A stretch of DNA of 63,331 bases, counting the filler, from Stramenopiles sp. TOSAG23-2 (Eukaryota), in the NCBI GenBank assembly GCA_900128395.1. It is 57 parts of 57 records of this genome, joined end to end, with 100 filler letters (N's around TTAATTAATTAA, not from the genome) between each part and the next. Parts side by side here need not be neighbours in the genome. Positions count along the whole stretch, not along the records: positions 1 to 1,020 come from LT654006.1; 56 more parts are not named here. One strand, written 5' to 3'. Numbering within the stretch: the stretch's first letter is position 1; each line of letters begins with the position of its first letter. The translations under genes and the position numbers were made by a program. The notes under the pieces are model-generated. The model was given only the letters and a program-made list of their open reading frames with translations. It was not told the DNA's origin and did not search any database. This document shows positions 1-29,615 of the stretch, in pieces.

Positions 1-68
1 GTCTGAAGAATTACTAGTTACATACAACCGCTTGGAAGGCGACTATGTTACCACTGCTCCAAAGGTGC
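1..68 (-). tRNA. trnG-UCC: Second, contig-truncated copy of the intron-containing tRNA-Gly(UCC) (exon1 26-68 plus first 25 nt of intron); D-stem degenerate
   Basis: Identical to 454-521 except two D-stem substitutions (GAGC vs GTGT). Offset is 453 bp. Confidence 0.8.
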
Positions 69-355
69 GAGGGAATATTACTACACACTCTGTTCAATAA
101 AGTAGTTGTATATTTTGTCATATCAATAAAGTAGTTGTATATTTTGTCATATATAATAACCTAATATAATACTTTTGTATGTCCTACTTGCATGTCACAT
201 AAAGCTGATACGAACAAGACTGTTTCCATGGAATTGAAAATAAGAAGTAGAAAAGACAAGACTAGAAAAGTATGTTTCCAATGTCAGAAAAAGATGAAAA
301 TTAGTGGAAAGGAAAGGGAAGGAAAAAAGAGAGAAGAGGAAGGGGGGAAAGAGAG

Positions 356-363
356 AAAAAAAA
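356..363 (-). terminator. Pol III oligo-T terminator of tRNA-Gly
   Basis: T8 run on the minus strand about 14 nt downstream of the discriminator base. Confidence 0.6.
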
Positions 364-376
364 TAAGCAAGGTTAT

Positions 377-521
377 TGCACCTTGCGGGAATTGAACCCG
401 CGGCCTAGAAATTTCAAATTTTCAGGATTTTGTTAGAGCTCTGCAGATGTTTTGTCTGAAGAATTACTAGTTACATACAACCGCTTGGAAGGCGACTATG
501 TTACCACTACACCAAAGGTGC
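377..521 (-). tRNA. trnG-UCC: tRNA-Gly(UCC) split by a 74-nt intron in the variable loop (exon1 479-521, intron 405-478, exon2 377-404)
   Basis: Joined exons give a 71-nt cloverleaf: acceptor GCACCTT/AAGGTGC+A, D arm GTGT-AGTGGTA-ACAT, anticodon arm GTCGC-CTTCCAA-GCGGT, variable loop TGCC, T arm GCGGG-TTCAATT-CCCGC. Confidence 0.93.
405..478 (-). other. GT-AG spliceosomal-type intron inside the tRNA-Gly gene
   Basis: Minus strand begins GTATGT, has CTCTAAC with the branch A 28 nt from the end, and ends TTTCTAG. Exact removal restores the 4-nt variable loop. Confidence 0.8.
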
Positions 522-1020
522 GAGGGAGTATTACTACACACTCTGTTATTATAAGAAATGGGATTTTTTTGATATATATAGTCTAATATTTTTTAGCAGG
601 TAAATAGTATTTACTATATGAGGATAGCGTAGCACCAAACAACTTTTCCATCTAGATTCAGAACTTTTTTAAAAAATAATTCTATGGTGCTGTAATGCTA
701 TTTCCTTGCTACAGTAGCGATGTGTCTTTTTGGTTGCGAATTGTGGCTGTTCTTGTGTTTCAGTTGTGATCCAAGCTTCTCATATGAATAACAGGTAAAT
801 AGCATTGAACGCACACTGCCCAAACCTCGACAAACTCCATTTCTCCACCATTAAAATAAATATATATATCCCATAATAGCAACATACATACATATACCTC
901 CCCTGTAACCAACAGACAAAACAGAATATATTGAAAGTTATAATAGATATATATATATATATATTTATATCTTCACTTTTAAATACTTGCAAATTTCAAA
1001 AAAAAAGAAATATATACTAC

Positions 1021-5344: not shown

Positions 5345-6969
5345 GGTAGTGAGAGTATAAAAGAGAGAGAGGGCATACACGTGTGTGTACACAACTGTGG
5401 ATGAAATATTTTAATATTTATAAATGATGGGTATATACTTCGTATGTTCGTACACAATGCAAAAAAATACACACCGAAAAGTATATTTACATATAAAACA
5501 NNNNNNNNNNNNNNNNNNNNNNNNNNNNNNNNNNNNNNNNNNNNTTAATTAATTAANNNNNNNNNNNNNNNNNNNNNNNNNNNNNNNNNNNNNNNNNNNN
5601 ACTAATGGTGGATGGTTATTTTGAATATCTGCTTTTATATATTTGATTTTCAAAAACATTAATAAGTAAAATATATTTATCATTATCAGGTAAAAAAAAA
5701 AGTTTCTATCATTTTTACGGCAAAACGATTTTCTTTTAAGAAACGGCATATTTTAATGTTATTTACGTCTATGTGTCGTCTTCTATTGTATCTTGTACGA
5801 GATATTTGATGGATATCTATGTCTTCTAGTTGTATTTCTACGTATACCATTATAGTAGTTTCTGTGATGAACTCAGGTAATCCGTAATCCAAACATAAAC
5901 ATACAGTTATACAGTGTAAACAAATTGAGGTCGTTTATTTCATCCTATAATTAGGAATAATAATAACTGTCGCTGTGTTGTCGTGCTAAAATACTCCAAT
6001 GGACAATGGTAGCTCTACAGTATATATTTATGTTGTACTGTAGCACTACTGTATGCTATGTATGTGCTAGTAAATACAATGCTATGTAGTGTATACCTCT
6101 CCCGAGCAGGTAAGACGGTGTGAAACACGGTTTTGAAACACTTTCTTTTTGTAATGTGCTACATGTAGATTTATTACTGAGGTTTGACCACCCATTTGAG
6201 TAGCAAATAACAAAGGTGGTTCTCGATCTTCTAATACTGTACAGTATTACATTATAATTATAGTTGTTTTGATATTCTATTTGATTATTTGTCTTTTGGA
6301 AAAGGCTGTTAAGTTAAGATATCATAGAAGTATCATTAGAGCGACTCATAAATTATTAAACCAATAAATTTATCCAAAATAATAATAAGATTGTTAAAAT
6401 AACACGGTACAGCACTACAATAAGCAGTTGTTCTACCACCAGTTGGTAGTTCTAAAAAATAATATAGCTACTAGTAGATAAATCTAGAAGAATAAATAGG
6501 GACAAGTAATAATTATAAAACTACCACAGGACATACATATAATACTAAAAAAAATATATATACAGTATAAATAGATATAAATAGATAGTATGTACATAAA
6601 ACATATACATACAAATAAAGNNNNNNNNNNNNNNNNNNNNNNNNNNNNNNNNNNNNNNNNNNNNTTAATTAATTAANNNNNNNNNNNNNNNNNNNNNNNN
6701 NNNNNNNNNNNNNNNNNNNNTATTTTCATCCAATGCAATGGTATTTATTATACAAGATATATAATAATGGTAATAATAATCCTAAATATATTGACAAGAA
6801 GTATTAAATATTAATATTATATTCTATATTCTATCTATAGTGCTATTATAATATTAATATGTATATTCAATAAAATATATTATTATTTTTATTGCCAGCA
6901 GCCCTAAGGCCAGATGCCAGATTTAGATTGGTGGCACGTTGTTGCATTCTGGCATTCCAGCATTCCAGC

Positions 6970-7009: not shown

Positions 7010-7402
7010 CATTATTGAAATTATTGATTGCCAGATTGCATGTTTTAGTATAATAATACCGCTAATGTTTTAGTGAGCCCTATAACAGGCTACGAGCTGA
7101 TGGCTGATGGCTGATGGCTAGCTCCCTTATAACCTAATAGGAACTGTATATATATACTATTCAGTATACAGTATACGTATAATGTCCCTACCGTCAGATC
7201 AGAGAGGACAGTGTACTTACATGTTCACCACATCAGTTATTTCCTCCAATTTATTATATATATCAGCAGTACACATTTTTTACTTAGTATGTGAAGAAAA
7301 TGTTAATGTTCCGGATTCCATACACTATGTATATTTAAGAGAATGACGTATAATATATATTTTCGATTGTTTATTGCCTTTTAATATATATATATAATAA
7401 AA

Positions 7403-29203: not shown

Positions 29204-29615
29204 ATGGTAAGTAATTTATCTAATTCACCACAATCTTCTCTCAGCATTTCGCTGTAACAGCTAAATGCATAGTATAACTTAACTAACAATAATATATATC
29301 GTCCATGTATAGTCTGAAATCGAGGAAACACTAGAAAGAATCAAAAACGTTAAAGGCGTTGAGAACTATGTAATTGTTGATAAAGAAGGTACAGTAATAA
29401 GAAAATATCCAGGCATGTCAGTTACTAGAGCAGAGCAGTTTGCTGCATATTTTAGAAAATTAGCCAACCAAGCAAGCCATGTTGTACGCGATGTTGATCC
29501 AGAGGACAGGTTAACGCATTTTCGTTTGAGAGCTAATAAACATGAAATTTTGGTATCTGAAGGTTCGGACTACATGGTGGTTATACAGCATCGTTGGACA
29601 CCAGCTATGAGTTAA
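29204..29615 (+). CDS. DYNLRB: Dynein light chain roadblock; exon1 = ATG 29204-29206, intron 29207-29312, exon2 29313-29615
   Basis: Splicing gives MSEIEETLERIKNVKGV...VRDVDPEDRLTHFRLR..KHEILV. Intron reads GTAAGT..CTAAC..TAG. Confidence 0.92.

What the first reader, a model, noticed from the sequence alone, without database searches (positions are those of the whole stretch)
377..521. tRNA-Gly(UCC) gene interrupted by a spliceosomal-type (GT-AG) intron in the variable loop
Seen: two tRNA halves that join into an intact 71-nt tRNA-Gly are separated by 74 nt reading GTATGT...GCTCTAAC...TTTCTAG. That is a consensus U2-type donor, a branch site 28 nt from the end and a YAG acceptor. The boundary can slide by only one base, and one of the two registers is exactly GT-AG. 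The site is after the first variable-loop base, not the canonical 37/38, and I cannot build a bulge-helix-bulge in either register. An mRNA intron in this window (29207-29312) has the same geometry (GTAAGT, CTAAC 26 nt before TAG). Established: eukaryotic tRNA introns are cut by the TSEN endonuclease, while spliceosomal introns are known in some fungal U6 snRNA and rRNA genes. I know of no spliceosomal intron in a tRNA gene. Inference: this lineage may mature a Pol III pre-tRNA with the spliceosome, and standard tRNA finders could miss or mis-call such genes.
Basis: partly seen in the sequence, partly recalled or inferred. Interest (0 to 1): 0.95.

Follow-up and report, generated by a model that had tools for sequence, protein, structure and literature searches.

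The report
Spliceosome-type introns inside a tRNA gene
A glycine tRNA gene of an uncultured, AT-rich marine microbe is interrupted by one or two inserts that look exactly like messenger-RNA introns; if they are really spliced out, this is a way of making a tRNA that I could not find described.

Summary
On the minus strand, 521-479 and 404-377 join into a canonical 71-nt tRNA-Gly(UCC). They are separated by a 74-nt insert with GTATGT, CTCTAAC 27 nt before the end, and TAG.

ARAGORN and Rfam at gathering threshold both miss the gene. The window is 58 separate ~1-kb contigs joined by N linkers; the gene lies on contig 1, which also carries a second, truncated copy (68-1).

A signal-blind metagenome scan found one related contig, L001. 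Its orthologous copy has the same 74-nt insert plus a second, 61-nt insert in the anticodon stem: GTAAGT, TTTCTAAC, a C-rich tract and CAG. Comparison with the window copy, which lacks this insert, fixes its ends as exactly GT and AG.

Neither insert can form a bulge-helix-bulge. The one verified mRNA intron of this assembly uses the same signals. No target-site duplication or repeat family was seen.

Splicing itself is not shown: the single read-laying run gave no informative RNA. In the seven searches that ran I found no tRNA gene with a spliceosomal intron.

Verdict: real spliceosomal-type introns in a tRNA gene. Removal by the spliceosome is inferred, at about 0.6.

The parts
479..521 (-). 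5' exon of tRNA-Gly(UCC) copy I: tRNA positions 1-44, covering the acceptor 5' strand, D arm, anticodon arm with anticodon TCC, and the first variable-loop base. The A-box-like TGGTGTAGTGG lies at 514-504.
405..478 (-). 74-nt spliceosomal-type intron (intron 2 in the L001 numbering). It has the donor GTATGT at 478-473, CTCTAAC at 438-432 with the branch A at 433, and the acceptor TAG at 407-405. Its longest T run is 3.
   Evidence: identical (74 of 74) in L001 copies I and II
377..404 (-). 3' exon: the rest of the variable loop, the T arm (B-box-like GGTTCAATTCC at 398-388), the acceptor 3' strand and discriminator A73. No CCA is encoded.
356..363 (-). T8 run 13 nt after the tRNA 3' end, a likely Pol III terminator. 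This is an inference from the recalled rule that Pol III stops at T runs.
   Evidence: read directly
522..547 (-). 26-nt upstream block. It is identical in window copy I and in both L001 copies (26 of 26) and has 1 difference in window copy II. It marks the upstream edge of both the duplicated unit and the conserved block, and may be a promoter or start-site region.
   Evidence: (D13)
26..68 (-). 5' exon of copy II. The D stem reads GAGC instead of GTGT, which leaves 2 of 4 D-stem pairs.
1..25 (-). First 25 nt of the same intron in copy II, cut off by the contig end.
69..376 (-). Trailer and spacer between the two copies, including a CT-rich tract and a 29-nt tandem duplication. It is 98.7% identical to L001, and the reason for that conservation is unexplained.
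29207..29312 (+). Comparator on another contig of the same assembly: a verified mRNA intron placed directly after the ATG of a Roadblock/LC7 gene. It has GTAAGT, ACTAAC 25 nt before the end, and TAG.

Best explanation
This is a nuclear tRNA-Gly(UCC) gene pair of an AT-rich (about 30% GC), intron-poor, uncultured marine eukaryote. The coding sequence is interrupted by genuine spliceosomal-type (U2-type GT-AG) introns.

One intron, of 74 nt, lies after variable-loop position 44 in every copy seen. A second, of 61 nt, lies between anticodon-stem positions 28 and 29 in one relative only.

Proposed mechanism, with what is shown and what is inferred:
1. The gene is transcribed, probably by Pol III from its internal A and B boxes, ending at the T8 run 13 nt downstream. 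This is inferred; Pol II is not excluded.
2. The spliceosome recognises GUAUGU or GUAAGU, the CUAAC branch site and YAG. It removes each intron as a lariat and joins the exons. This is inferred from sequence only.
3. The product is an ordinary pre-tRNA, which RNase P, RNase Z and the CCA-adding enzyme finish. This follows from established knowledge.

What is shown: the inserts have the sequence anatomy of this organism's own mRNA intron. Their removal at GT/AG restores a canonical cloverleaf. One of them is present or absent between relatives exactly at GT..AG.
For: 1. Joining the exons gives a canonical 71-nt tRNA-Gly(tcc) with discriminator A73 and no encoded CCA. Rfam's tRNA model gives 51.3 bits with the 74 nt as a single insertion.
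2. The scan pattern specified only exon sequence and a gap of 59-89 nt, so it was blind to splice signals. It returned 1 contig, L001. That contig has two copies, both with the identical 74-nt insert.
3. L001 copy I carries a further 61-nt insert with GTAAGT, TTTCTAAC 14 nt before the end, a C-rich tract and CAG. The alignment with three copies that lack it places the gap uniquely, so its ends are exactly GT and AG without reference to any tRNA model.
4. After both inserts are removed in silico, L001 copy I equals the spliced window copy I, 71 of 71.
5. The chance of the three signals in one fixed insert is 2.4e-7, and it happened twice.
6. The one verified mRNA intron of the assembly has the same signals and geometry.
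7. There is no BHB. In the registers that keep the mature RNA, the central 4-bp helix has 0 of 4 pairs for the 61-nt insert. For the 74-nt insert it has 3 of 4, all G-U, or 2 of 4. The 74-nt insert alone has no stable fold (z = +0.58).
8. There is no target-site duplication and there are no terminal inverted repeats (read). Neither insert has another copy in the 57.7 kb of window sequence plus 7.5 kb of L001; the best other matches are 11-15 nt.
9. The insert-bearing gene is seen in three independent assemblies: the window, L001, and a 638-nt contig of run X2.
10. Between window and L001 the far upstream region has 21 mismatches and 42 gap columns against 418 matches. The exons (71 of 71) and the -26 block (26 of 26) are unchanged.
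11. Precedent: spliceosomal introns are on record in the Pol III-transcribed U6 gene, in U1, U2 and U5 genes, and in rRNA genes (passages of PMC5855946).
Against: - No RNA evidence of any kind. I saw no spliced junction and no lariat.
- The only contig laid on the locus (run X2, whose library may be DNA) keeps the 74-nt insert.
- Conservation is not confined to exons or splice signals. The whole block from -26 through the intron and spacer into copy II is 490 of 495 identical between window and L001. The intact exons therefore cannot by themselves be read as purifying selection on the tRNA.
- Copy II has a weakened D stem, and its D loop differs among the three sources. It may be decaying.
- The absence of long T runs in the introns is what composition predicts: 69-80% of shuffles do as well. 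The 61-nt intron contains a T4 run.
- Only one mRNA intron could be verified as a comparator.
- No genome is held, so an intronless tRNA-Gly(UCC) elsewhere cannot be excluded.
- No other tRNA gene, split or not, lies in the window.
- Spliceosomal action on such short, highly structured exons (27, 16 and 28 nt) is unproven.
Confidence: 0.6

Rival explanations
1. These are dead or dying gene copies. Spliceosomal intron sequences were inserted into tRNA-Gly copies, for example by reverse splicing into an abundant RNA followed by reverse transcription and recombination, or by an introner-like element. The interrupted genes yield no functional tRNA, and the cell relies on intact tRNA-Gly(UCC) genes elsewhere.
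For: - Copy II has 2 of 4 D-stem pairs, and its D loop differs in all three sources.
- No spliced product was seen.
- No genome is available to show that these are the only tRNA-Gly(UCC) genes.
- Exon conservation is no greater than that of the intron and spacer.
Against: - Copy I keeps a flawless cloverleaf, A and B boxes and a T8 terminator in two genomes whose adjacent intergenic DNA differs by 21 mismatches and 42 gap columns in about 480 columns.
- The 61-nt insert is present or absent exactly at GT..AG. That is what loss through a spliced RNA copy, or gain by reverse splicing, would give.
- No repeat family, target-site duplication or terminal inverted repeat was found.
Confidence: 0.2
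2. The locus is part of a Pol II-transcribed, spliced non-coding or host transcript. The introns are ordinary Pol II introns. The tRNA is then either released from the spliced transcript by RNase P and RNase Z, or is only a tRNA-like relic.
For: - The spliceosome normally acts on Pol II transcripts (statement in PMC12530127, passages seen).
- The unexplained 98.7% conservation of the 307-nt spacer suggests that the functional unit is larger than a tRNA gene.
- The two copies lie in tandem on one strand.
Against: - The gene has the full Pol III anatomy: internal boxes, and a T8 run 13 nt after the 3' end of copy I and a T7 run after copy II.
- No protein-coding frame with a Pfam match lies in the spacer (protein 5: 0 families).
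- The neighbouring Pumilio gene in L001 is on the other strand and points away.
Confidence: 0.12
3. These are non-canonical tRNA introns removed by the tRNA splicing endonuclease and ligase, like the ectopic BHB introns of red algae, nucleomorphs and archaea. On this reading the splice-signal look is coincidental.
For: Ectopic tRNA introns outside position 37/38 exist in some eukaryotes. This is recalled; the disrupted-tRNA review PMC3978253 was seen only in a search listing.
Against: - There is no bulge-helix-bulge in any register that keeps the mature RNA. The BHB cut geometry I used is recalled.
- The insert has no stable fold.
- The coincidence would have to occur twice, at 2.4e-7 each.
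- The 61-nt insert also has a pyrimidine tract before its CAG.
Confidence: 0.04
4. Assembly artefact or a chance resemblance.
For: The window comes from a very fragmented assembly of ~1-kb contigs.
Against: The same interrupted gene occurs in three independent assemblies. The chance estimate is 2.4e-7 per insert.
Confidence: 0.01

Closest known systems
mRNA-type (spliceosomal) introns in non-coding RNA genes: U6 snRNA of Schizosaccharomyces pombe and other fungi (Pol III), U1, U2 and U5 snRNA of Rhodotorula hasegawae, and rRNA genes of ascomycetes (PMC5855946, passages seen)
   Same: A GT-AG intron with a branch site interrupts a structural RNA gene that does not code for protein. For U6 the host gene is transcribed by Pol III. 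Intron presence varies between related species.
   Different: The host here is a tRNA. The review passage I saw names snRNA and rRNA genes and no tRNA gene. A tRNA is not part of the spliceosome's active site, so the usual 'reverse splicing into a nearby snRNA' explanation does not apply directly. Up to two introns occur in a 71-nt RNA, which leaves a 16-nt internal exon.
Canonical and ectopic tRNA introns cut by the tRNA splicing endonuclease (TSEN, or archaeal EndA) at a bulge-helix-bulge or at position 37/38
   Same: An intervening sequence in a tRNA gene whose removal restores the cloverleaf.
   Different: The positions are 28/29 and 44/45, not 37/38. No BHB can be formed. The ends are GT-AG, with a 5' hexamer, a CTAAC branch motif and, in one case, a pyrimidine tract.
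Spliceosomal introns of intron-poor eukaryotes with strict signals, including this assembly's own Roadblock/LC7 intron at 29207-29312
   Same: GTAAGT or GTATGT, CTAAC 14-27 nt before YAG, and lengths of 61-106 nt.
   Different: The host is an mRNA, with the intron just after the ATG.
   Same: A tRNA gene of a marine picoeukaryote with a spliceosomal-looking intron.
   Different: It concerns another genome and another tRNA. I did not see its sequence and did not test it.

Membership tests
tRNA gene (Rfam RF00005) | Full-length match to the covariance model and a cloverleaf with an anticodon | tested here: met
   51.3 bits against a gathering score of 29, model 1-71. ARAGORN calls tRNA-Gly(tcc) on the exons joined in a script.
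Spliceosomal U2-type GT-AG intron | GT and AG termini, fixed independently of the host RNA model | tested here: met
   61-nt insert: the unique gap placement against three copies that lack it gives GT..AG. 74-nt insert: one of the two registers that keep the mature RNA is GT..AG.
Spliceosomal U2-type GT-AG intron | A 5' splice-site hexamer and branch-site motif like those of the organism's own mRNA introns, with the branch 10-40 nt before the 3' end | tested here: met
   The inserts have GTATGT with CTAAC at 27 nt and GTAAGT with CTAAC at 14 nt. The Roadblock intron has GTAAGT with CTAAC at 25 nt. Only 1 verified comparator.
Spliceosomal U2-type GT-AG intron | Pyrimidine tract before the acceptor | tested here: inconclusive
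   Clear in the 61-nt insert, where 11 of the 12 bases before the terminal AG are C or T, including a run of 7 C. Weak in the 74-nt insert, which is A/T-rich there.
Spliceosomal U2-type GT-AG intron | Removal as a lariat with exon ligation, seen in RNA | tested here: inconclusive
   The one read-laying run gave no RNA contig on the locus from 3 RNA runs, and one insert-retaining contig from a run of uncertain kind.
tRNA intron of endonuclease (BHB/TSEN) type | Bulge-helix-bulge (3-nt bulges around a 4-bp helix) at the exon-intron borders, or position 37/38 | tested here: not met
   The positions are 28/29 and 44/45. The central helix has 0 of 4 pairs, or 3 of 4 (all G-U) and 2 of 4. The motif geometry is recalled.
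Pol III type-2 (tRNA) gene | Internal A and B boxes and a downstream T-run terminator | tested here: met
   TGGTGTAGTGG at 514-504, GGTTCAATTCC at 398-388 and T8 at 363-356. The consensus motifs are recalled. Actual polymerase use was not tested.
Introner or transposon-derived intron | Many near-identical copies in the genome, with a target-site duplication or terminal repeats | tested here: not met
   No other copy in 57.7 kb plus 7.5 kb. No TSD or TIR at either insert. The sample is a small part of a genome, so a family is not excluded.
tRNA-derived SINE or dispersed tRNA pseudogene | A degenerate tRNA head, an A-rich or LINE-like tail, and dispersed copies | tested here: not met
   Copy I has a perfect cloverleaf. 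The tail is T/C-rich on the sense strand. There are two local copies of a 244-nt unit only, and none elsewhere in the window.

The most novel reading that the evidence does not exclude
An uncultured marine eukaryote matures a cytosolic tRNA with the spliceosome. On this reading its tRNA-Gly(UCC) genes carry one or two true spliceosomal introns that are gained or lost between close relatives.
Probability: 0.55. Interest if true: 0.92.

Novelty: new variant of a known kind. Interest (0 to 1): 0.85.

Why it matters
- Current accounts treat nuclear intron types as separate worlds. Spliceosomal introns belong to Pol II transcripts, with a few snRNA and rRNA genes as exceptions. tRNA introns are cut by TSEN (PMC12530127, abstract and passages; PMC5855946, passages).
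- A tRNA gene that needs the spliceosome would cross that border. It would show that very short, highly structured and probably uncapped Pol III transcripts can be spliceosome substrates.
- The case offers a natural example of recent intron gain or loss with no transposon marks, which bears on how new spliceosomal introns arise.
- It would also mean that tRNA gene sets of protist genomes and MAGs are under-counted, because ARAGORN and Rfam at default thresholds miss such genes.

Tried and rejected
1. RNA test. The look-up of sequencing runs listed 22 marine runs, the best holding 13% of the words of window:1-2200. Read laying on L001:6500-7207 with X1, X2, X3 and X13 laid 0 contigs from the three runs on record as RNA. 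It laid one 638-nt contig from X2, whose kind is uncertain, and that contig keeps the 74-nt insert. This gives no information on splicing either way. It is no evidence of absence of expression.

2. Whole genome. None is held. I could not search for an intronless tRNA-Gly(UCC), for other split tRNAs, or for TSEN genes.

3. Other collections. The exon-donor 20-mer gave 0 hits in viral contigs and 0 in genome contigs.

4. Other split tRNAs in the held sequence. I removed 46,268 candidate GT..AG segments from the window and L001 and ran ARAGORN, which made 7 calls. Six are the two single-intron Gly copies, in three variants each. One is a tRNA-Leu(caa) call on the complementary strand inside L001 copy I, which I take to be spurious.

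5. More mRNA introns for a consensus. Two heuristic scans returned 29 and 19 candidates, of which only the Roadblock intron was convincing. 11363-11579 fits the strict pattern but has no coding context.

6. Selection against Pol III terminators inside the introns is not detectable.

7. Rfam on L001:6600-7469 at E up to 1 did not report either tRNA copy. I attribute this to the filters, since the near-identical window copy scored 51.3 bits.

8. Lineage.
   - An atlas search with the V-ATPase C fragment says only 'Eukaryota'.
   - The best solved relatives of the myosin fragment are 'Myosin-2 heavy chain' motor constructs, which I recall as Dictyostelium.
   - I regard this as too weak to name a lineage.

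9. Opposite-strand ORF in the spacer (165-392, with CxxC...CxxC). It has 0 Pfam families and lies largely in a purine-rich tract that lacks stops by composition. Rejected as a gene.

10. Two segment comparisons at the end (the spacer and copy II) were mis-sliced and are not used. One search gives those figures.

11. Earlier-findings look-ups by sequence and by place found nothing.

Full report
**What the window is.** The 63,331 bases are not one locus. They are 58 pieces of 388-1020 bases, sorted by length and joined by N44-TTAATTAATTAA-N44 linkers. GC content is about 26-33% in 3-kb steps.

The pieces encode eukaryotic proteins with the standard code. Examples are a myosin motor (Pfam E = 1.2e-102), a Roadblock/LC7 light chain and a V-ATPase subunit C. 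Many have N-rich low-complexity runs.

Public runs that hold words of window:1-2200 are all labelled as marine or seawater metagenomes. The source is therefore a very fragmented assembly of an AT-rich marine eukaryote. I could not name its lineage. The finding lies on the first piece, 1-1020.

**The observation.** The minus strand of 521-377 consists of 43 nt, a 74-nt insert and 28 nt. Joined inside a script, the two outer parts form a 71-nt tRNA-Gly(tcc). It has a 7-bp acceptor stem, a 4-bp D stem, a 5-bp anticodon stem, a 5-bp T stem and discriminator A, and no encoded CCA.

Rfam's tRNA model matches end to end at 51.3 bits when contig 1 is searched alone with permissive filters. The 74 nt form one insertion between model positions 44 and 45. 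ARAGORN and Rfam at gathering threshold, both run on the whole window, find nothing.

The insert begins with GTATGT and has CTCTAAC with 27 nt to the end, which puts the branch A at 433. It ends in TAG. Only the GT..AG register and the one shifted by a single base keep the mature RNA.

It follows the ATG of a Roadblock/LC7 gene whose second exon matches the Pfam profile from position 2 to 89 of 91 and has an in-frame stop just upstream.

- The same contig carries a second copy at 68-1(-), cut by the contig end 25 nt into the same insert. Its D stem reads GAGC instead of GTGT.
- A T8 run lies 13 nt after the 3' end of copy I.
- A- and B-box-like motifs are in their usual places (the consensus is recalled).

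**Related sequence.** I scanned the metagenome collection with a pattern that specified only 17 exon bases on each side and a gap of 59-89 nt, so that it was blind to splice signals. It returned one contig, L001 (JACLAD010016363.1, 7469 nt). L001 carries an intronless flavin monooxygenase ORF and an intronless 867-aa Pumilio ORF, and then two tRNA-Gly copies on the other strand from Pumilio.

- Copy II (7208-7353) is the GAGC type with the identical 74-nt insert.
- Copy I (6695-6900) is the GTGT type with the identical 74-nt insert and a further 61-nt insert at 6722-6782. That insert reads GTAAGT, then TTTCTAAC 14 nt before the end, then a C-rich tract and CAG.

In the four-way alignment the 61 columns are a single gap between ...CATAGT and CGCC.... 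The gap cannot be shifted in either direction, because the flanking bases differ. Comparison alone therefore fixes this insert's ends as GT and AG, with no appeal to a tRNA model.

With both inserts removed in a script, L001 copy I is identical to the spliced window copy I (71 of 71). ARAGORN calls all three spliced copies tRNA-Gly(tcc). ARAGORN on the raw L001 sequence finds no tRNA.

**Is it chance?** On both strands of the window's real sequence (115,452 positions) the frequencies are 6.5e-4 for GTAWGT, 4.7e-4 for CTAAC and 2.1e-2 for YAG. The probability that one given insert has all three in the right places is 2.4e-7, and two different inserts do.

The strict pattern GTAWGT...HCTAAC...YAG occurs three times in the window: the tRNA insert, the verified Roadblock intron, and one unplaced case at 11363-11579.

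**Rivals at the sequence level.**
- BHB. With the geometry I recall (a 4-bp helix between two 3-nt bulges, cuts after the second bulge base), the central helix has 0 of 4 pairs for the 61-nt insert. For the 74-nt insert it has 3 of 4, all G-U, or 2 of 4.
- Fold. The 74-nt insert has no fold beyond shuffles (z = +0.58).
- Mobile element. Neither insert has a target-site duplication or inverted ends. Neither has another copy in the window or L001. The sample is small, so a repeat family is not excluded.
- SINE. The duplicated unit is 244 nt, made of 26 nt upstream, the gene and about 71 nt of T/C-rich trailer. It occurs twice locally. No other copy of the gene, of its 3' exon or of the insert occurs in the window. 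That does not fit a SINE.
- Artefact. Three assemblies agree: the window, L001, and a 638-nt contig of run X2.

**What comparison can and cannot say about function.** Window and L001 differ clearly upstream of -26. There are 418 matches, 21 mismatches and 42 gap columns, and BLAST gives 88.1% over 530 columns.

From the site of the 61-nt insert onward they are 490 of 495 identical. That block includes the 74-nt intron (74 of 74), all exons (71 of 71) and the spacer (98.7% over 308 columns).

By my arithmetic, at the upstream substitution rate (0.048) about 3.4 changes would be expected in the exons and about 24 in the block; 0 and 3 are seen. The block as a whole is constrained, homogenised or recently exchanged. 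Because the intron and spacer share this, the intact exons are not on their own proof of selection on the tRNA. The predicted signature of 'conservation only at the donor, branch and acceptor' cannot be tested with these two genomes.

Copy II looks less healthy. Only 2 of 4 D-stem pairs remain, and its D loop is AGTGGTAA in the window, AGTGGGTAA in L001 and AGTTGGTAA in X2.

**RNA.** The single read-laying run gave nothing usable (details under Tried and rejected). Splicing is therefore inferred, not observed.

**Mechanism proposed.** The gene has everything a Pol III tRNA gene needs. In L001 copy I the A and B boxes start 177 nt apart. From memory, TFIIIC tolerates such spacing. Neither intron has a T run longer than 4, but composition alone predicts that.

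I propose the following sequence of events:
1. Pol III transcription. Pol II is possible.
2. Recognition of GUAWGU, CUAAC and YAG by the spliceosome.
3. Lariat excision and exon ligation.
4. Ordinary end processing.

The precedent is the mRNA-type intron of the Pol III-transcribed U6 gene, together with those of U1, U2, U5 and rRNA genes (PMC5855946, passages).

The precise presence or absence of the 61-nt intron, without transposon marks, fits three routes. These are gain by reverse splicing, loss through a spliced RNA copy, or conversion from the neighbouring copy that lacks it. I cannot tell which.

**Novelty.** Seven literature searches ran. An eighth attempt failed on a term that was too short. 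The exact phrase 'spliceosomal introns in tRNA' gave 0 papers. None of the searches turned up a tRNA gene with a spliceosomal intron.

- The U6 review passage I saw names snRNA and rRNA hosts and no tRNA gene.
- A 2025 paper describes the nuclear intron types as unrelated, with tRNA introns removed by TSEN (PMC12530127, abstract and passages).
- The library lacks most subscription journals, and supplements were not seen.
It is unchecked and I did not test it, but it suggests that this may not be a one-off.

**Verdict.** The sequence-level reading is supported and extended: these are spliceosomal-type introns, not BHB introns, in a tRNA-Gly gene, and tRNA finders miss the gene. The functional claim remains an inference, which I put at about 0.6. 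I classify it as a new variant of a known kind, namely mRNA-type introns in structural RNA genes, now in a tRNA.

Noticed in passing
window 1-63331: The window is a concatenation of 58 short contigs (388-1020 nt, in descending length) joined by N44-TTAATTAATTAA-N44 linkers. Apparent ORFs of about 370 aa, and adjacent ORF ends, are artefacts of these joints.
   Followed up: yes
window 69-376 (-) = L001 6901-7207: The 307-nt trailer and spacer between the two tRNA copies is 98.7% identical between the two genomes, while DNA upstream of -26 is only about 87-88% identical. Rfam finds nothing there and I have no explanation. Possibilities are another small RNA, concerted evolution or recent exchange.
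   Followed up: partly
window 165-392 (+); L001 6869-7111 (-): A stop-free frame of 76-80 codons lies opposite the spacer and the 3' exon, with a CxxC...CxxC spacing. It has no Pfam match and lies largely in a purine-rich tract, so it is probably not a gene.
   Followed up: partly
window 11363-11579 (+): A 217-nt segment has GTATGT, two CTAAC motifs, a pyrimidine tract and CAG, but no coding context on either side. It may be an intron in a UTR or in a non-coding gene.
   Followed up: no
L001 2495-2550 and 4493-4546: A stretch of about 56 nt downstream of the monooxygenase ORF is repeated almost exactly inside the Pumilio coding region, which lies on the opposite strand.
   Followed up: no
L001 311-631 and 2393-2487: These are tandem repeats: units of about 58 nt in 4-5 copies upstream of the monooxygenase ORF, and units of 21-27 nt in 4 copies just after it.
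   Followed up: no
window 96-153 (-) = L001 7124-7181: An exact 29-nt tandem duplication sits directly upstream of the conserved -26 block of copy II.
   Followed up: no
window 29204-29312 (+): The only convincing mRNA intron in about 58 kb sits immediately after the start codon (Roadblock/LC7). Long ORFs such as the Pumilio and monooxygenase genes are uninterrupted. The organism appears to be intron-poor, with strict splice signals.
   Followed up: partly
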